Source of the DNA: Escherichia phage vB-EcoP-XT18
Sequence record: OR757434.1
Length of the DNA: 64,000 bases
Reading direction: 5' to 3' (one strand)
The notes below the pieces were generated by a model. The model had not been told where the DNA came from and ran no database searches. It saw nothing but the letters and a program-made list of their open reading frames with translations. A program made the position numbers and the translations under genes. Of this stretch, positions 30,807 through 62,248 are shown in pieces. Position 1 is the first letter of the stretch, and the number at the start of each line of letters is the position of its first letter.

Positions 30807-31838
30807 TTATAGTCCAGCAAAAACCTTAGCTGCATTCATTACAGGAACTGATAGATTAACTACAGTGTCAGCTCCTAGGTCGTAATTTTGATCCCACTGA
30901 AATAGGTATCTTCCATAGCCAGTTCCTATGCTAGAGCCGCTCATTGTGTGAGATCTCATTTGCTGATATCTCCATCCACTACCTTGGCCTTTTATTGCAC
31001 CTATTCCAGAAGTAAGAGGTATCATAGGATACGACATTCCAGTGTTACCACCACCTGAACCTATAAAAGTATCTACAGTGAAAGGTGTTCTGTTAGTAGA
31101 GAAGACGCACTGAGTGGTGCCCGGAGAGTAGATATTCAAACCCCCGTTATGCTCAGGAACGCCAGCTCCGTTGCAGAATACGGCAATCCTCACAAAGACG
31201 GACCCTCCTTCATTAGTGTTTCCGTTGACATAAGGCCTATTCTGATAGACTCGAATAATCCTGTCATCAGATGTGTAAGATAAACCAACCCCTCCATCAG
31301 ACCAATTAGCAAATACAACAGCATTGGTCATATTGAACCCACCAATATTTGGTATCTGAAGGGAGTTGTTTATGGTCCCCTGCCAAGCCCAAATACATTG
31401 ACCAACAACCCCACTATCCGATATTGAGAAGTAGTCTGCTGTATTGGAAAAGGTAATTCCATAATTCCTATCCGCTCTAGGCCATATTTGGTATACGTTG
31501 AACCCACAGTCGAACAGAGGGTTACTACCTGGGTTCTGATTCAGAGTGACTCTAAAAGAGGAGTTGTTTTCTACGTAGATATCATTCACACAATAAACAT
31601 CAGGAACTAGGTTAGGAGGGACTTCCCATTGCCAGCATAAAGAACCAGTAGGAACAATAACTATCTGACCACTGCCATCCCACCCACTAATAGGGAAAGA
31701 CCTCCCTGCCCCGTTAAAGTTAAAACTTCCTCTTATACTATTCTTGAACTGAGGGAAAGTACTTCCACTGTCTATGAAAAGAGGGGCTGGTGTAGCTGGT
31801 CCCGGCCCTACCGGTTGTGTCCAAATTCCATATGCCAT
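30807..31838 (-). CDS. structural protein
   Basis: ORF in the late operon. Confidence 0.4.
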   Translation of the reverse strand: MAYGIWTQPVGPGPATPAPLFIDSGSTFPQFKNSIRGSFNFNGAGRSFPISGWDGSGQIVIVPTGSLCWQWEVPPNLVPDVYCVNDIYVENNSSFRVTLNQNPGSNPLFDCGFNVYQIWPRADRNYGITFSNTADYFSISDSGVVGQCIWAWQGTINNSLQIPNIGGFNMTNAVVFANWSDGGVGLSYTSDDRIIRVYQNRPYVNGNTNEGGSVFVRIAVFCNGAGVPEHNGGLNIYSPGTTQCVFSTNRTPFTVDTFIGSGGGNTGMSYPMIPLTSGIGAIKGQGSGWRYQQMRSHTMSGSSIGTGYGRYLFQWDQNYDLGADTVVNLSVPVMNAAKVFAGL

Positions 31839-31839
31839 A

Positions 31840-32808
31840 TCACCAACTCCCTATCCTAATTCTCAGAGCACCACTTCCATCATAGAAGTCTATCCTGTTT
31901 CCATTCATCCATAATTGTGCCCCACCTGTGCCACCCATAACGAAATCACCTCCAACAGTAAACCTCCAGTTAGTACCTGACATTGTACCAGCAGTTATTT
32001 TATCAGCAGACAAACTTTGAATCTGAGCATTGGTGATTGATACGTTGGTAATCTGCCCCCACTCAATAGTAGCAGTTGCAATTTGAGCAGAGGTGATAAC
32101 TACGTTAGTGATATCAGCAAACTCCATAACAGCTCTACCGTTCTCAACTCTGAATGGGGTACTTCCTGACGTGCCATCAGATACCACAAACTTATCAGCT
32201 GTTACTTGGAACTGGCTTATAGTGCCATTGTTTGTTAGCTTTACCCCTGCTGTCTTGCCGTTTACTGTGGAATTAACACCCCAAGTAGCCTCATACTCGG
32301 TGAGCTTCATATACTGAGATGCACTTCCTGTGCCATTAGTGAGATCAGATTGAATAAGAGCTATCTCTTGTCCTTGGTCGTTAACAATCCCTTCGACAGT
32401 TTGGATAGATGCTGTATTTCCTTCTATAGACGTTTTGATACCGGACACAGTTGAATCCAGCTTGACAGGAGGACTAACAGAATTATCCCAAATGTCATCA
32501 GTGGATAGATTACCCATTTGTGTTATGATATCTGCAATGGCAGTCTCAATCTCTGTAGTAACACGGTTCTCTAGTTCATCGAATTGTAAATTCATAGCAT
32601 GAAGAGCTTTAATACGAACATCAATCTCCTCATGGATTTCATCTATAGCTTGGAACATTTGATTAGTTGCAGTACTGATATTCTGGAGTTCATCATATAT
32701 TGCAACGTTGTTAGTTTCTACACTCTCAGAGGTGTTTAGAAAACCCACACTATAAGGTTGTGTTGTGTTGTTTCTTCCGGTATTCTTACGAAAGCCACCA
32801 GCACCCAT
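31840..32808 (-). CDS. tail-fibre-like structural protein
   Basis: ORF in the late operon; C-terminal Thr/Gly-rich repeats. Confidence 0.4.
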   Translation of the reverse strand: MGAGGFRKNTGRNNTTQPYSVGFLNTSESVETNNVAIYDELQNISTATNQMFQAIDEIHEEIDVRIKALHAMNLQFDELENRVTTEIETAIADIITQMGNLSTDDIWDNSVSPPVKLDSTVSGIKTSIEGNTASIQTVEGIVNDQGQEIALIQSDLTNGTGSASQYMKLTEYEATWGVNSTVNGKTAGVKLTNNGTISQFQVTADKFVVSDGTSGSTPFRVENGRAVMEFADITNVVITSAQIATATIEWGQITNVSITNAQIQSLSADKITAGTMSGTNWRFTVGGDFVMGGTGGAQLWMNGNRIDFYDGSGALRIRIGSW

Positions 32809-54273: not shown

Positions 54274-54301
54274 TTGACAACTGGAAAGCCTAACCTATAA
54301 T
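54274..54301 (+). promoter_or_regulatory. strong sigma70-type early promoter (TTGACA-16-TATAAT)
   Basis: consensus -35 at 54274-54279 and -10 at 54296-54301; A/T-rich upstream region. Confidence 0.7.
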
Positions 54302-54333
54302 GAGCATAAGTCAGCGATGACGTGAAACATCCC

Positions 54334-54343
54334 CGCTCTTTAA
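54334..54343 (+). promoter_or_regulatory. boxA-like element CGCTCTTTAA
   Basis: about 35 nt downstream of the promoter. Confidence 0.5.
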
Positions 54344-54420
54344 AAACTTATCATCTTGCCCTTTCGCATAGATTCAAGCGAGATAAGGGAAAAGAATAAA
54401 AGAAGATGATAAAAAAGAGG

Positions 54421-54449
54421 TTGCAAACGTGGTTAAGGTAGTTCATACT
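54421..54449 (+). promoter_or_regulatory. sigma70-type promoter candidate (TTGCAA-17-CATACT)
   Basis: -35 and -10 hexamers with 17-nt spacer. Confidence 0.35.
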
Positions 54450-54610
54450 AACCACAAGTTAACAAAACAACGTTAACTAGTTCCCAAGTCAACGTATCGC
54501 GGGAAAGGTGGCACATAGTGCAGCGAGTAGTTCGGGAGTAGGCGCCCCGTTAATGAATAAGTAAGCCTTTAATGATGCAGTGATTAGCAGACACTATAAA
54601 AGGCTAAAAA

Positions 54611-54620
54611 CGCTCTTTAA
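54611..54620 (+). promoter_or_regulatory. boxA-like element CGCTCTTTAA (full context ACGCTCTTTAACAA)
   Basis: closest of the four copies to the rrn boxA sequence. Confidence 0.55.
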
Positions 54621-54726
54621 CAATATGGATCATAAGTTTAAGCCTTATCGCTTAATCTTCAATCAAATAAAGCTGGTTGATATATCCTCCCAATAGCGGG
54701 AACGACGAAAAAGATTAAAAAAGCGG

Positions 54727-54755
54727 TTGACAGCAAAAACATCATGGTCCATAAT
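54727..54755 (+). promoter_or_regulatory. strong sigma70-type early promoter (TTGACA-17-CATAAT)
   Basis: -35 at 54727-54732 and -10 at 54750-54755; A-rich upstream region. Confidence 0.65.
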
Positions 54756-54847
54756 GAGCGTACTCACTAGGCAAATCACCGCTTCAGTGAAAAGCGAAAC
54801 AACGGCTTACAGTTGCGTAGCGTGAGAAAGCACGCTGACAGATTTAC

Positions 54848-54857
54848 CGCTCTTTAA
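54848..54857 (+). promoter_or_regulatory. boxA-like element CGCTCTTTAA
   Basis: about 95 nt downstream of the promoter. Confidence 0.5.
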
Positions 54858-55530
54858 TAATTTAAACGTCCCCATATATCGGTTAAATATGCTGGAAGAT
54901 AATAACCATCGGAAAGCATACCAGATAAAACGGCGTAAAACTCCCTAAACCATCAGGGTAAACAGTTTTACAATCCCTTAACTGGAAACGTCACCACTGA
55001 TAAGCGGATTCATTGAGTACACGCAACGGTTTAAGCTAATCGCCCACGGTTAAGGGTAGCGGCGGCCATCGCTAACACGGTGCTACAGTGAAATAAGTTA
55101 ATCAGGGCAGACAAGTCCGACGAAATAACGCTCAATTGAGAGCGGCGGGGGATGGTTAAAGGGTAGCAAATTGCTATTTAACAATAAGGTTTAGTGTGAA
55201 CGTTTACGATGCGAACGGCTTGAGATTCGTCTTATGATGAAAGTACATAGTCGGTTTATGTAGTAAACTCGCCGAAAGATATAAAACGCCGGAATAATAG
55301 GCGGTTAGTGACTCTTTCGCAATAGTATCCCATAGTGGGCGATGACTAGCGAAAGAGAGCTGATATAAAAGGATAGGCGGGAGCGAAAGCAAAGTAAACG
55401 ATATTGCCGACGGTTACATCAATGTAACTAATTAGAGTCGGACGCACTGCCTTATTGTGGTGATTGATCATCGCTATCAGGTCGGCTTGGTTTATAGCGA
55501 CTAATTAAAGATACCAGTTGAAACACCACG

Positions 55531-55578
55531 GATAAGGGGGCGGCAAGGTTAACTCCTGACAAGACCGCCCCCCTTATC
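55531..55578 (+). other. long GC-rich hairpin (13-14 bp stem, 21-nt loop) in the early leader, possible RNA processing site
   Basis: GATAAGGGGGCGG ... CCGCCCCCCTTATC inverted repeat. Confidence 0.4.
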
Positions 55579-55679
55579 AATAATTACTTAACAATGAGTG
55601 ATTATCGATAAGTCAATGGCGACTTAAAAAGCTCATAGAGAGCGGGGCATAGTGCCCTTACAATTGAAAGGTGAATATC

Positions 55680-56601: not shown

Positions 56602-56636
56602 AAGGCGCTATCTTAACGGGTAGCGCCTTTTCTTTT
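56602..56636 (+). terminator. rho-independent terminator
   Basis: 9-bp stem AAGGCGCUA/UAGCGCCUU then UUCUUUUAU. Confidence 0.6.
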
Positions 56637-61535: not shown

Positions 61536-61844
61536 GTGAAACAAAAGCATTTTATCATCTCAACCTTACTACTAATGACAACCATTGGTATCATCTCTGT
61601 TAATAGTGCAGAGATTGGGGTTAAGTATCAGAGTGTTCAGCAATGCACTCTTAAAGAGCATAGCTTAACTGGTATCAAAGAATCTCATGGTATGGTAAGA
61701 GATGGGCTTCTGTTTGTAGAAACAACTTCTGGTAATCGTGTCATGGCTACTGATGGCAAAGAAACAAAGTATGCCTACTTCCCTGATACAACAGGCTACT
61801 ACACTTTTGAAGAGAAGGATTGTAAGAAGTCTTTCTCTTTATAA
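61536..61844 (+). CDS. secreted or membrane-anchored protein
   Basis: N-terminal hydrophobic signal-like segment. Confidence 0.45.
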   Translation: MKQKHFIISTLLLMTTIGIISVNSAEIGVKYQSVQQCTLKEHSLTGIKESHGMVRDGLLFVETTSGNRVMATDGKETKYAYFPDTTGYYTFEEKDCKKSFSL

Positions 61845-61853
61845 ATAAATCAA

Positions 61854-61928
61854 GTCCCTATAGTTAAAAGGATATAACAGATTTCTTCTAAAAATCCATT
61901 CTAGGTTCGAGTCCTAGTGGGGACGCCA
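61854..61928 (+). tRNA. tRNA-Arg (anticodon UCU) with encoded CCA
   Basis: hand-folded cloverleaf: 7-bp acceptor stem with one G-U, D arm GTTA/TAAC, anticodon stem GATTT/AAATC with loop CTTCTAA, T arm CTAGG-TTCGAGT-CCTAG, discriminator G. Confidence 0.8.
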
Positions 61929-61948
61929 AATCAAATAGGAGGTGTGTT

Positions 61949-62248
61949 ATGAGTTGGGGTGGTGTAATATCCTTAATCTGTATCTTCCTTGTCTGTGTGG
62001 CCCTTACAGGCTGCGTACAGAGCCGTCCTGATAGATGGTGTGCAGTAGCAGTGGATGGTATTTGTGTATCTCGCTGGCATAAAGGTGAGAAGGTTCCTTC
62101 TGGTGAAATTGATATGCGCTGGAACGGAGCAACCTGCTCTAATGCTAACCCTTCTATCAACGAAGAGAAGTCTACGCCAGACAATGTTGTGATTGATACA
62201 GCGTTGTGGTGTGGTGGCTCTACGACTACAACCGGTAAGGAGTGGTGA
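61949..62248 (+). CDS. lipoprotein, candidate superinfection-exclusion protein
   Basis: signal peptide ending in lipobox LTGC. Confidence 0.45.
   Translation: MSWGGVISLICIFLVCVALTGCVQSRPDRWCAVAVDGICVSRWHKGEKVPSGEIDMRWNGATCSNANPSINEEKSTPDNVVIDTALWCGGSTTTTGKEW

What the first reader, a model, noticed from the sequence alone, without database searches (positions are those of the whole stretch)
61949..62248. Early lipoprotein, candidate superinfection-exclusion factor
A 99-aa protein with a signal peptide and LTGC lipobox is encoded among early genes. Small early lipoproteins such as T5 Llp block the phage's own receptor to prevent superinfection.
Basis: inference. Interest (0 to 1): 0.4.

Follow-up and report, generated by a model that had tools for sequence, protein, structure and literature searches.

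The report
Phage lipoprotein that probably blocks LptD
This small early phage gene encodes a lipoprotein related to Rtp45, a protein that shuts the bacterial LptD channel to incoming phages, and it hints that this group of short-tailed E. coli phages uses LptD as its unrecognised final receptor.

Summary
ORF 61949..62248 (+) encodes a 99-aa protein with a hydrophobic leader and an L-T-G-C lipobox. It sits in the early small-gene block of a Kuravirus (phiEco32/SU10-like) podophage, 20 nt after tRNA-Arg.

The protein is a firm member of Pfam PF24052 (114 bits, cutoff 27). Its only credible PDB relative, by sequence and by predicted fold, is Rtp45 (9RPS chain D), the superinfection-exclusion lipoprotein of siphophage Rtp. 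Rtp45 binds the periplasmic face of the LPS translocon LptDE. The lipid cysteine and the Cys30-Cys38 disulphide of Rtp45 are conserved here (C22, C31, C39). T5 Llp and T1 Cor are not detectably related.

The same genome also encodes a homologue of the LptD-binding receptor protein Rtp44/RBP-Oekolampad: window 30807..31838 (-), the SU10 gp19 ortholog, Pfam DUF6453. It lies directly after a tail needle that resembles the tip of siphovirus GpJ.

Best reading: an early outer-membrane lipoprotein that blocks LptD. By implication, LptD is the Kuravirus terminal receptor, which no searchable paper states.

Main caveat: gp19 was not detected in SU10 virions in two mass-spectrometry studies.

It is a new member of a known kind, with a new and testable implication.

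The parts
61949..62248 (+). CDS for the 99-aa prolipoprotein, an Rtp45 / PF24052 family member. The mature form is 78 aa, 8.5 kDa, pI 5.2, with 5 Cys.
   Evidence: ORF listing. Pfam PF24052 at 114.4 bits against a cutoff of 27. phrog_4281. PDB 9rps_D at E 1.4e-12. Fold match to 9rps_D with TMt 0.74. Mature-protein properties.
61937..61942 (+). Shine-Dalgarno sequence AGGAGG, 6 nt upstream of the ATG.
   Evidence: Read directly from the sequence.
61949..62014 (+). Signal peptide (residues 1-21) and lipobox L19-T20-G21-C22. C22 is the predicted lipidated first residue of the mature protein. Val at +2 (not Asp) predicts Lol sorting to the outer membrane.
   Evidence: Pattern and hydropathy script. 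C22 is invariant in the family alignments. The +2 sorting rule comes from established knowledge of E. coli Lol sorting.
62024..62128 (+). Conserved family core, residues 26-60 (RPDRWCAVAVDGICVSRWHKGEKVPSGEIDMRWNG). C31 and C39 align with the Cys30-Cys38 disulphide of Rtp45. Residues 31-36 align with the Rtp45 segment (30-35) that forms a beta-sheet with LptD 318-323.
   Evidence: BLASTP and HMMER alignments. Structural description of Rtp45 in PMC12685063. AF2 pLDDT of 92-93 for residues 31-60.
62135..62212 (+). Subfamily-specific insertion, residues 63-88, bracketed by an extra cysteine pair (C63, C88). In the AF2 model it sits at the tip of the long C-terminal hairpin. It is followed by the family C-terminal motif T-G-K-E-W (Rtp45 has GSKEWN).
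   Evidence: Alignments A1, A2 and A4. AF2 secondary structure E52-65 and E86-98, with lower pLDDT in between. The C63-C88 disulphide is an inference.
61854..61928 (+). tRNA-Arg (anticodon TCT), 20 nt upstream of the CDS on the same strand. The same arrangement occurs in phiEco32 (tRNA, then gene 106).
   Evidence: ARAGORN. phiEco32 annotation.
54274..55584 (+). Three near-consensus sigma-70 promoters (12/12, 11/12 and 10/12 matches) at the head of the early block that contains the CDS. Terminator-like hairpins at 56602, 58015 and 60170 lie in between.
   Evidence: Consensus scan. The SU10 paper describes three sigma-70 promoters between CDS 120 and 121.
30807..31838 (-). Presumed partner gene: a 343-aa DUF6453 protein, the ortholog of SU10 gp19. 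It is a homologue of the LptD-binding receptor-binding proteins Rtp44 and RBP-Oekolampad.
   Evidence: tblastn of Rtp44 into the window, E 1e-10. Pfam PF20051 at 92.4 bits against a cutoff of 25. phrog_1265 matched over its full length. Its only PDB sequence hit is 9rpt_C at E 7.6e-11. The AF2 model (pLDDT 85, pTM 0.86) matches 9rpt_C alone, at E 2.5e-13 and TMt 0.81. End-to-end alignment A5.
31840..32808 (-). Tail needle, the ortholog of SU10 gp18 (322 aa). It is a stand-alone homologue of the C-terminal tip of siphovirus GpJ and lies immediately upstream of the DUF6453 gene.
   Evidence: Pfam PF09327 Phage_Tail_Tip, E 9e-22. BLASTP to T1 GpJ residues 925-1166 and Rtp43 residues 905-1068. PF09327 lies at the C-terminal end of Rtp43 and Oekolampad GpJ. 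SU10 gene order.

Best explanation
The ORF encodes an Rtp45-family phage lipoprotein.

Mechanism, with shown and inferred steps marked:
- Timing (inferred from position and homology): it is made early in infection from the sigma-70-driven early block.
- Export and anchoring (inferred from sequence rules): it is exported by Sec, lipidated on Cys22, cleaved by signal peptidase II, and sent by Lol to the inner leaflet of the outer membrane, because residue +2 is Val rather than Asp.
- Target (inferred from homology to Rtp45, for which the cryo-EM structure shows it): its disulphide-stapled beta core docks on the periplasmic rim of the LPS translocon LptD-LptE. A long hairpin pushes up the LptD lumen and displaces extracellular loops, so LptD-specific phage receptor-binding proteins can no longer engage.
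- Consequence (inferred): exclusion of superinfecting phages that finish adsorption or eject DNA through LptD, and protection of progeny from being wasted on cell debris.
- Self-exclusion (inferred from the genome's own content): the genome carries a DUF6453 homologue of the LptD-binding proteins directly behind a GpJ-tip-like tail needle. The excluded phages therefore most likely include the Kuravirus itself, which would make LptD the Kuravirus terminal receptor.
For: Family membership:
- Pfam PF24052 at 114.4 bits against a gathering score of 27. Rtp45 itself scores 128 bits.
- The only meaningful PDB sequence hit is 9rps_D (Rtp45), at E 1.4e-12 with the single sequence and 5e-26 with the family profile.
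- 38% identity and 57 bits to Rtp45. This is more than Rtp45 shares with SE-Oekolampad (33%, 46 bits), the exclusion lipoprotein assigned to Oekolampad, whose receptor-binding protein was solved on LptDE.
- Family invariants are all present: the lipobox Cys, the two cysteines that form the Rtp45 Cys30-Cys38 disulphide, G60, and the C-terminal GKEW motif.
- The AF2 model (pLDDT 80, core above 90) finds 9rps_D as its only hit, with probability 1.00 and TMt 0.74. The next hit has E 2.8.

Function of the family:
- In small siphoviruses the LptD-type receptor locus pairs a DUF6453 protein with this lipoprotein. That protein family tracks LptD specificity (PMC8594841; bioRxiv 10.64898/2026.04.02.716166).

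Partner in the same genome:
- Window 30807..31838 (-) is DUF6453. Its only PDB hit by sequence is the Oekolampad receptor-binding protein bound to LptDE, and it is the only significant hit by fold.
- It follows a needle that is homologous to the GpJ tip.

Co-distribution:
- Lipoprotein and DUF6453 hits have near-identical taxonomic profiles in the phage collection. The counts are Escherichia 258 vs 276, Klebsiella 52 vs 64, Shigella 25 vs 30, Campylobacter-labelled 7 vs 7.
- The two genes are adjacent in Rtp, Shfl1 and Oekolampad.
- They are unlinked but both present in Webervirus and Kuravirus.
- For both proteins the nearest non-Kuravirus relatives include the Klebsiella Webervirus versions.
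- The FhuA-type Cor of T1 is not related beyond its leader.
Against: - No experiment on any Kuravirus lipoprotein was found.
- The signal-peptide n-region lacks the usual positive charge, so export efficiency is uncertain.
- The gene is about 30 kb from the DUF6453 gene and on the other strand, unlike the classic adjacent pair.
- The DUF6453 protein is only 22-25% identical to proven LptD binders. This is below the >30% within-family identity by which the cited study defined each receptor-specific family, so its receptor could differ.
- SU10 gp19 was not detected in virions in either mass-spectrometry study, although gp16-18 and gp20-24 were. It is also not mentioned in the SU10 cryo-EM model.
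- The published model for these phages invokes O-antigen for the long fibres and a surface or LPS-core receptor for the short fibres, with no protein receptor.
- SU10 tomograms show many particles ejecting into one cell. Exclusion, if any, is therefore not immediate or absolute at high multiplicity.
- The roughly 22-residue insertion could change the target or the effect.
Confidence: 0.6

Rival explanations
1. Heterotypic exclusion only. The lipoprotein blocks LptD exactly as Rtp45 does, but its role is to keep competing LptD-dependent siphophages out of an infected cell. The Kuravirus itself would enter through O-antigen, LPS core and its short fibres, and gp19 would have another role.
For: - gp19 was not detected in SU10 virions.
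- The published entry model has no protein receptor.
- The lipoprotein gene is unlinked to gp19 and lies among early accessory-type small genes.
- Multiple SU10 particles eject into one cell.
Against: - gp19 sits in the tail/ejection operon, directly after a GpJ-tip-like needle.
- It is conserved across Gordonclarkvirinae but variable (46-100% identity), as receptor-binding proteins tend to be.
- Lipoprotein and gp19 co-occur in each lineage examined and share Webervirus-type proteins among their nearest outside relatives.
- A protein present at one to three copies per virion is easy to miss in gel-band mass spectrometry.
Confidence: 0.17
2. Same fold, different job. The lipoprotein has diverged from Rtp45 in its uncharged leader, its 22-residue insertion and its extra disulphide. 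It might bind another outer-membrane protein. Alternatively it might bind LptDE to modulate LPS or O-antigen export, for example by thinning the O-antigen layer that the long fibres need, rather than by sterically blocking a receptor-binding protein.
For: - The insertion and the extra Cys pair are specific to the Kuravirus-type subfamily.
- These phages depend strictly on O-antigen.
- Only residues 6-67 align with Rtp45 by BLAST.
Against: - The segment that contacts LptD in Rtp45 (residues 30-35 and the disulphide) is the best-conserved part.
- The protein is as close to Rtp45 as the Oekolampad exclusion lipoprotein is.
- No evidence was found that Rtp45 alters LPS export.
- The cited study describes four mutually unrelated protein families at the receptor locus, one each for FhuA, BtuB, LptD and YncD.
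Confidence: 0.15
3. A lysis lipoprotein (o-spanin or u-spanin), or simply a non-functional or mis-called ORF.
For: - It is a small outer-membrane lipoprotein encoded by a phage.
- The leader lacks K/R.
- Spanins are not annotated in the SU10 lysis cassette.
Against: - It is about 25 kb from the position syntenic with the SU10 holin/endolysin genes (window about 36.6-37.4 kb).
- No i-spanin partner overlaps or adjoins it, and it has no C-terminal membrane helix.
- It shows strong, specific homology to Rtp45, not to Rz1.
- It is conserved with a strong ribosome-binding site in about 80-90 genomes.
Confidence: 0.03

Closest known systems
Rtp45 of Escherichia phage Rtp (UniProt Q333D9; PDB 9RPS chain D), Pfam PF24052 'Phage_lipoprotein'
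   Same: - Same Pfam family, well above threshold.
- 38% identity.
- Lipobox Cys, the Cys30-Cys38 disulphide pair and the C-terminal G-x-K-E-W motif are all conserved.
- The predicted fold matches the solved chain.
- The genome also carries a DUF6453 homologue of Rtp44.
   Different: - 99 aa against 76 aa: a roughly 22-residue insertion with an extra Cys pair sits at the predicted hairpin tip.
- The leader has no K/R.
- The host virus is a prolate podovirus, not a T1-like siphovirus.
- The gene sits in the early block, about 30 kb from the receptor-binding-protein gene, rather than adjacent to it.
- Binding to LptD and exclusion are untested.
SE-Oekolampad (bas18_0026) and the lipoproteins of LptD-type receptor loci in Dhillonvirus, Tunavirus and Rtpvirus (e.g. 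Shfl1p52)
   Same: Family members at 35-39% identity to the window protein. They are paired with DUF6453 receptor-binding proteins.
   Different: They are short (73-76 aa), have MKK-type leaders, and lie immediately upstream of the receptor-binding-protein gene, downstream of gpJ.
Webervirus (Klebsiella T1-like) 'receptor blocking protein', e.g. phage Solomon gp32
   Same: - Among the nearest non-Kuravirus relatives, aligning over the full length (34% over 93 aa).
- Also unlinked from its DUF6453 gene, by about 10 kb.
- Webervirus DUF6453 proteins are likewise among the nearest outside relatives of the window's gp19.
   Different: 75 aa with no insertion; siphovirus context, between a VRR-NUC nuclease gene and a Dam methylase gene.
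T5 Llp (FhuA-blocking lytic conversion lipoprotein) and T1/phi80/N15 Cor
   Same: Same logic: a small lipoprotein that blocks the phage's outer-membrane receptor from the periplasmic side. It is expressed before lysis (PMC9586334 as cited).
   Different: - No detectable sequence relationship. Llp is absent from the PDB profile hits at E<=10.
- T1 Cor scores 17.7 bits, below the cutoff of 27, and only over its leader. BLASTP against the window protein finds nothing.
- The target is FhuA and the mechanism is allosteric, whereas Rtp45 displaces LptD loops physically.

Membership tests
PF24052 / Rtp45-type superinfection-exclusion lipoproteins | Sequence matches the family HMM above the curated gathering score. 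| tested here: met
   114.4 bits against a cutoff of 27, E 2.3e-33, covering profile positions 1-80 of 80.
PF24052 / Rtp45-type superinfection-exclusion lipoproteins | N-terminal lipoprotein signal peptide with a lipobox cysteine. | tested here: met
   LTGC at residues 19-22 after a 14-residue hydrophobic core. The Cys is invariant in the 20-sequence alignment. The n-region lacks K/R, which is a deviation. No dedicated LipoP or SignalP tool was available.
PF24052 / Rtp45-type superinfection-exclusion lipoproteins | Conserved intramolecular disulphide pair (Rtp45 Cys30-Cys38). | tested here: met
   C31 and C39 align with Rtp45 C30 and C38 and are invariant in the family. Actual disulphide formation was not tested.
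PF24052 / Rtp45-type superinfection-exclusion lipoproteins | Fold like the solved Rtp45 chain: a small beta core plus a long hairpin. | tested here: met
   The AF2 model (mean pLDDT 80) gives 9rps_D as its only hit, with probability 1.00, TMt 0.74, TMq 0.41 and E 2e-3. This is moderate evidence, because the protein is small and the published paper notes that AF3 mispredicts Rtp45 itself.
PF24052 / Rtp45-type superinfection-exclusion lipoproteins | Encoded next to a DUF6453 receptor-binding-protein gene, downstream of gpJ. | tested here: not met
   The DUF6453 gene is at 30807..31838 on the other strand, about 30 kb away. Co-occurrence in the same genome is met. Webervirus shows the same unlinked arrangement, so adjacency is common but not universal.
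PF24052 / Rtp45-type superinfection-exclusion lipoproteins | Binds the periplasmic face of LptD/LptE and prevents receptor-binding-protein attachment and infection. | not testable with these tools
   This needs co-purification or cryo-EM plus plating and adsorption assays. The published authors report that AF3 complex predictions for this system are wrong.
T5 Llp family (FhuA blockers) | Sequence or profile similarity to Llp. | tested here: not met
   No Llp chain appears among the PDB hits of the single sequence or of the family profile at E<=10.
Cor family (T1, phi80, N15; FhuA blockers) | Sequence similarity to Cor. | tested here: not met
   BLASTP of the window protein against T1 Cor finds no hit. 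Cor reaches only 17.7 bits on PF24052, confined to the leader region.
Spanins (Rz1-type o-spanin or T1 gp11-type u-spanin) | Located in the lysis cassette, with an overlapping or adjacent i-spanin or a C-terminal membrane helix. | tested here: not met
   The ORF is in the early block. The position syntenic with the SU10 holin/endolysin genes is at about 36.6-37.4 kb. Neighbouring ORFs are small, unrelated proteins. The C-terminus (TTTTGKEW) is polar.
DUF6453 (PF20051) LptD-type receptor-binding proteins: membership of the partner protein, window 30807..31838 | HMM match above threshold, full-length alignment, and fold like the Oekolampad receptor-binding protein. | tested here: met
   92.4 bits against a cutoff of 25. 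9rpt_C is the only PDB hit by sequence and the only significant one by fold, at E 2.5e-13 and TMt 0.81. End-to-end alignment including the N-terminal M-x-x-G-I motif. Identity is only 22-25%, so receptor specificity is not established.
DUF6453 (PF20051) LptD-type receptor-binding proteins: membership of the partner protein, window 30807..31838 | Present in the virion at the tail tip. | tested here: not met
   The literature check is negative. SU10 gp19 is listed 'no/no' in Supplementary Table 1 of PMC9509320 and is absent from the 2014 proteome table. Low copy number or loss during purification is not excluded.

The most novel reading that the evidence does not exclude
Gordonclarkvirinae podoviruses (Kuravirus and relatives) may use the essential LPS translocon LptD as their terminal receptor.

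They would have acquired a three-part module from small siphoviruses:
- a GpJ-tip domain, re-used as the detachable tail needle (gp18);
- a DUF6453 receptor-binding protein riding on it (gp19, so far unassigned and unseen in virions);
- the Rtp45-type exclusion lipoprotein, relocated to the early region.

On this reading, the lipoprotein's longer, disulphide-stapled hairpin reaches further into the LptD lumen than Rtp45's. Needle release and genome ejection would be triggered by LptD engagement rather than by the short fibres alone.
Probability: 0.4. Interest if true: 0.7.

Novelty: new member of a known kind. Interest (0 to 1): 0.55.

Why it matters
Kuraviruses are common, broad-host-range phages of avian-pathogenic and uropathogenic E. 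coli, and they are being considered for therapy. Their entry is described structurally (the SU10 nozzle), but no terminal receptor has been identified.

An Rtp45-family lipoprotein and a DUF6453 protein in the same genome give a concrete candidate: LptD. LptD is essential, conserved and hard to mutate without cost. That bears on resistance evolution and on the design of phage cocktails.

- A Kuravirus and an LptD-dependent siphophage might exclude each other and share resistance mutations.
- The work assigns a testable role to SU10 gp19, an unassigned gene in a structurally well-studied virion.
- It extends a newly solved exclusion mechanism from siphoviruses to podoviruses.
- The insertion variant offers a natural probe of how far a periplasmic lipoprotein can reach into the LptD lumen.

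If the lipoprotein turns out to act only on competitors, it is still an ordinary but useful example of inter-phage warfare.

Tried and rejected
No hit appeared in the single-sequence or profile searches of PDB sequences.
- T1 Cor relationship is rejected. It is sub-threshold on PF24052 and gives no BLAST hit.
- The armadillo-repeat PDB hits come from summed weak repeats over the low-complexity C-terminal part, with no stretch significant on its own. I treated them as artefacts.
- P0013 (1775 aa) and P0024 (577 aa) in the representative search are repeat proteins matching spuriously.
- NCBIfam has no model for the lipoprotein, for gp19 or for the neighbouring ORF.
- The word-indexed homologue search returned only close Kuravirus relatives. 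The exhaustive profile search was needed to reach the wider family.
- The phiEco32 middle/late promoter motif TAATGTATA was recalled from memory. Exact copies occur only in the middle and late parts of the window and none lies near the ORF. The total count is no higher than chance, so this is weak support for 'early'.
- I could not read the phiEco32 temporal-expression paper (PMC3275717) or the phiEco32 proteome paper (PMC2587145), because neither is held. Early timing and the virion status of the phiEco32 ortholog of SU10 gp19 therefore rest on SU10 data and on gene position.
- The residue-level Rtp45-LptD contact table (Fig. S16) is an image and was not retrievable. Conservation of individual contact residues could not be scored.
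I reran it without them.
- I could not produce a record-by-record co-occurrence table of lipoprotein and DUF6453 across all phage genomes, because only 60 rows per search are listed. I relied on matching taxon counts and on individually inspected genomes.
Full report
**1. The observation**

- A consensus AGGAGG lies 6 nt upstream. The stop codon is 1 nt from the next ATG.
- A tRNA-Arg(TCT) gene ends 20 nt before the start codon.
- The N-terminus, MSWGGVISLICIFLVCVALTG|C, has a 14-residue hydrophobic core and an L-T-G-C lipobox.
- Of 253 six-frame ORFs of at least 50 aa in the window, four match the PROSITE-type lipobox pattern. Only this one has a real hydrophobic core.
- The one irregularity is an n-region without Lys or Arg.
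- The predicted mature protein is 78 aa, 8.5 kDa and acidic, with four cysteines besides the lipid-attachment Cys. Val at +2 predicts outer-membrane sorting by the established E. coli Lol rule.

**2. Where the window comes from**

The window is from a Kuravirus, a phiEco32/SU10-like prolate podovirus of the subfamily Gordonclarkvirinae.
- The nearest records are the APEC phages XT32 and XT73. Both proteins discussed here are 100% identical in XT32.
- The layout is: + strand replication and middle genes up to about 21 kb; − strand structural and ejection genes from 21.8 to 50.2 kb; and a + strand block of small ORFs from about 50.5 kb to the end of the window.
- That last block starts with three near-consensus sigma-70 promoters at 54274, 54727 and 55556. 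It matches the early region described for SU10 and phiEco32, CDS 69-125, with 'three promoters between genes 120 and 121'.
- The phiEco32 ortholog is gene 106, already labelled 'putative phage lipoprotein', and it too lies right after the tRNA-Arg. SU10 carries the same label.
- 'Early lipoprotein' is therefore correct by position and homology. Terminator-like hairpins lie between the promoters and the gene, and timing was not measured.

**3. What the protein is**

It is a clear member of Pfam PF24052 'Phage_lipoprotein' (114 bits, cutoff 27) and of phrog_4281.

Against all PDB sequences, the only meaningful hit is 9RPS chain D (E 1.4e-12; 5e-26 with a family profile). That chain is Rtp45, the superinfection-exclusion lipoprotein of siphophage Rtp, solved by cryo-EM on Shigella LptDE-LptM (Dunbar et al., PNAS 2025, PMC12685063).

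According to that paper:
- Rtp45 sits on the periplasmic side of LptD near strands 5-8.
- It pairs residues 30-35 with LptD 318-323 and carries a Cys30-Cys38 disulphide.
- It sends a long hairpin up the LptD lumen, which displaces extracellular loop 4 by up to 20 Å and so prevents receptor-binding-protein attachment.

In the window protein:
- C31 and C39 align with Cys30 and Cys38 of Rtp45. The surrounding core (RPD-WCA-G-CV-W-G-VP-GE-D-R-G) is the best-conserved part, and the C-terminal GKEW matches Rtp45's GSKEWN.
- Across a 20-sequence family alignment the invariant positions are the lipid Cys, these two cysteines and one glycine. All are present here.
- The protein is 38% identical to Rtp45 (57 bits). 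That is more than Rtp45 shares with the exclusion lipoprotein of Oekolampad (33%, 46 bits). Oekolampad is the phage whose receptor-binding protein was solved on LptDE.
- An AlphaFold2 model (mean pLDDT 80; above 90 across residues 31-60) finds 9rps_D as its only PDB match: probability 1.00, TM 0.74 on the target, next hit E 2.8.

T1 Cor reaches only 17.7 bits on PF24052, over its leader, and gives no BLAST hit to the window protein.

The analogy was right. The relative is Rtp45, and the implied target is LptD rather than FhuA.

**4. What is particular to the Kuravirus version**

- All Kuravirus-type homologues share the unusual uncharged leader MSWGGVISL….
- They also share an insertion of about 22 residues bracketed by an extra cysteine pair (C63, C88). 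A few metagenomic relatives have the same feature.
- In the model the insertion lies at the tip of the long C-terminal hairpin (strands 52-65 and 86-98), with lower confidence.
- If this is the hairpin that enters the LptD lumen in Rtp45, the Kuravirus protein would reach further into it. This is inference only. The residue-level contact table of the paper is an image and could not be read.

**5. The surroundings that matter are 30 kb away**

In small siphoviruses the Rtp45-type lipoprotein is encoded next to the receptor-binding protein (Rtp44 in Rtp), downstream of gpJ. This locus type tracks LptD specificity (PMC8594841; bioRxiv 10.64898/2026.04.02.716166).

A tblastn search with Rtp44 unexpectedly hit Kuravirus genomes at 22-25% identity over 85-90% of its length. 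In the window the match is ORF 30807..31838 (−), 343 aa. For this protein:
- It is Pfam DUF6453 (92 bits, cutoff 25), the family of Rtp44 (379 bits) and Shfl1p51 (420 bits).
- It matches phrog_1265 over its full length.
- Its only PDB sequence hit is 9RPT chain C, the Oekolampad receptor-binding protein bound to open LptDE (E 7.6e-11).
- Its AF2 model (pLDDT 85, pTM 0.86) has that chain as its only significant structural match in the PDB: E 2.5e-13, TM 0.81 on the target, next hit E 0.07.
- It aligns end to end with the siphovirus proteins, including the N-terminal M-x-x-G-I motif.
- It is the ortholog of SU10 gp19 (96% identity).

The gene just upstream, 31840..32808 (−), is the SU10 gp18 tail needle.
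- It carries Pfam PF09327 'Phage_Tail_Tip'.
- It aligns with the last ~250 residues of T1 and Rtp GpJ, where the same domain sits in siphovirus GpJ.
- According to the BASEL study, that J-like tail tip is where siphovirus receptor-binding proteins are thought to attach.

The Kuravirus tail operon therefore reproduces the siphovirus order 'J tip, then DUF6453 protein', with the lipoprotein relocated to the early block.

**6. Co-distribution**

- Hits to the lipoprotein and to Rtp44 have near-identical taxon profiles in the phage collection. The counts are Escherichia 258 vs 276, Klebsiella 52 vs 64, Shigella 25 vs 30, Campylobacter-labelled 7 vs 7, Veterinaerplatzvirus 4 vs 4.
- Within Gordonclarkvirinae both genes occur in roughly 80-90 records.
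- Klebsiella Webervirus phages also carry both genes unlinked, about 10 kb apart. Their versions are among the nearest outside relatives of both Kuravirus proteins.
- The two Kuravirus proteins do not co-vary in identity across strains. KBNP1711 has 98% lipoprotein and 63% gp19 identity; SU10 has 73% and 96%. This fits partners that bind opposite faces of the receptor.
- I could not build a full record-by-record matrix.

**7. Mechanism proposed**

- Shown here: family membership, the conserved lipid Cys and disulphide cysteines, fold similarity, and the presence of a DUF6453 partner behind a J-tip needle.
- Shown by others for Rtp45: binding to periplasmic LptDE and displacement of EL4. The exclusion mechanism was inferred from that structure.
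- Inferred for this protein:
  - early synthesis;
  - Sec export, lipidation and Lol sorting to the outer membrane;
  - docking on LptD;
  - block of LptD-dependent phage entry, including that of the Kuravirus itself through gp19.

I put about 0.6 on 'LptD-directed exclusion lipoprotein'. I put about 0.4 on the stronger corollary that LptD is the Kuravirus terminal receptor.

**8. Evidence against**

- gp19 was not detected in SU10 virions by shotgun mass spectrometry in 2014, although gp16-18 and gp20-24 were.
- It is listed 'no/no' in Supplementary Table 1 of the 2022 cryo-EM paper, and the main text never mentions it.
- A monomer or trimer at the needle tip could be missed in gel-band mass spectrometry and in a 10 Å, C3-averaged needle map. 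Even so, this is a real gap.
- The current model for these phages is O-antigen for the long fibres and a surface or LPS-core receptor for the short fibres.
- gp19 is far more diverged from proven LptD binders than the lipoprotein is from Rtp45.
- SU10 tomograms show many particles ejecting into one cell.
- The leader lacks a positive charge.
- No paper in the searchable library links Kuravirus with LptD. The only one containing both words treats them separately. DUF6453 occurs in a single unrelated paper.

**9. Rivals**

- The lipoprotein excludes only competing LptD-dependent siphophages (0.17).
- It has drifted to another target, or it modulates LPS or O-antigen export (0.15).
- It is a spanin or a non-functional ORF (0.03). 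This is rejected on location, lack of a partner and specific homology.

**10. Novelty and verdict**

The family, its structure and its mechanism are known (2025), and the gene has been labelled 'putative lipoprotein' in phiEco32 and SU10. The finding itself is therefore a new member of a known kind.

New as far as the searchable literature shows:
- the placement of the Kuravirus protein in the Rtp45 family;
- the recognition that SU10 gp19 is a homologue of the LptD-binding proteins;
- the observation that the tail needle is a GpJ-tip homologue;
- the resulting hypothesis that LptD is the receptor.

That makes the finding more interesting than a routine annotation, but it remains untested.

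Scores: interest 0.55. The novel reading has probability 0.4 and an interest of 0.7 if true.

Noticed in passing
window 30807..31838 (-): The ortholog of SU10 gp19 is a DUF6453 protein. Its only PDB relative, by sequence and by predicted fold, is the LptD-binding receptor protein of phage Oekolampad (9RPT chain C). It is unassigned in the SU10 virion structure and was not detected in two virion mass-spectrometry studies.
   Followed up: yes
window 31840..32808 (-): The tail needle (SU10 gp18 ortholog) carries Pfam PF09327. It aligns with the C-terminal ~250 residues of siphovirus GpJ (T1 925-1166, Rtp43 905-1068). It looks like a free-standing J tip placed directly before the DUF6453 gene.
   Followed up: partly
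window 61536..61844 (+): A 102-aa ORF just upstream of the tRNA has a classical cleavable-looking signal peptide (MKQKHFIISTLLLMTTIGIISVNSA|E) and two cysteines. It has no Pfam or NCBIfam match (phrog_23590) and occurs in only 11 Kuravirus records. It is a second exported accessory protein next to the lipoprotein, of unknown function.
   Followed up: partly
window 61854..61928 (+): tRNA-Arg(TCT) lies 20 nt before the lipoprotein start codon on the same strand, as in phiEco32. Processing of the tRNA would cut the early transcript just ahead of the lipoprotein's ribosome-binding site. In phage PE006 most of the tRNA seems to be deleted while the lipoprotein ORF is kept.
   Followed up: no
L002 (PQ812250.1, phage PE006) 3359-3655 and 3660-3857: There is an annotation slip in a public record. 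The true lipoprotein ORF (95% identical to the window protein) is unannotated. The label 'lipoprotein' sits on the following 65-aa ORF, which has no cysteine.
   Followed up: yes
L005 (Klebsiella phage Solomon) 4995-5222; Webervirus genomes generally: Klebsiella T1-like phages carry the Rtp45-type lipoprotein between a VRR-NUC nuclease gene and a Dam methylase gene, about 10 kb from their DUF6453 gene. This suggests that LptD may also be the terminal receptor of Webervirus. Their versions are among the closest outside relatives of both Kuravirus proteins.
   Followed up: partly
window 54274-55584 (+) and 9672, 15796, 15868, 26261, 41858: Three near-perfect sigma-70 promoters head the early block. 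The five exact copies of TAATGTATA (the phiEco32 middle/late promoter motif as I recall it) lie only in the middle and late regions. The total number of near-matches is no higher than chance.
   Followed up: partly
proteins P0013 (1775 aa) and P0024 (577 aa) from the representative search: Two long tandem-repeat proteins from metagenomes match the lipoprotein profile in 11 and 6 stretches. By inspection they are low-complexity repeat artefacts, not multi-domain relatives.
   Followed up: partly
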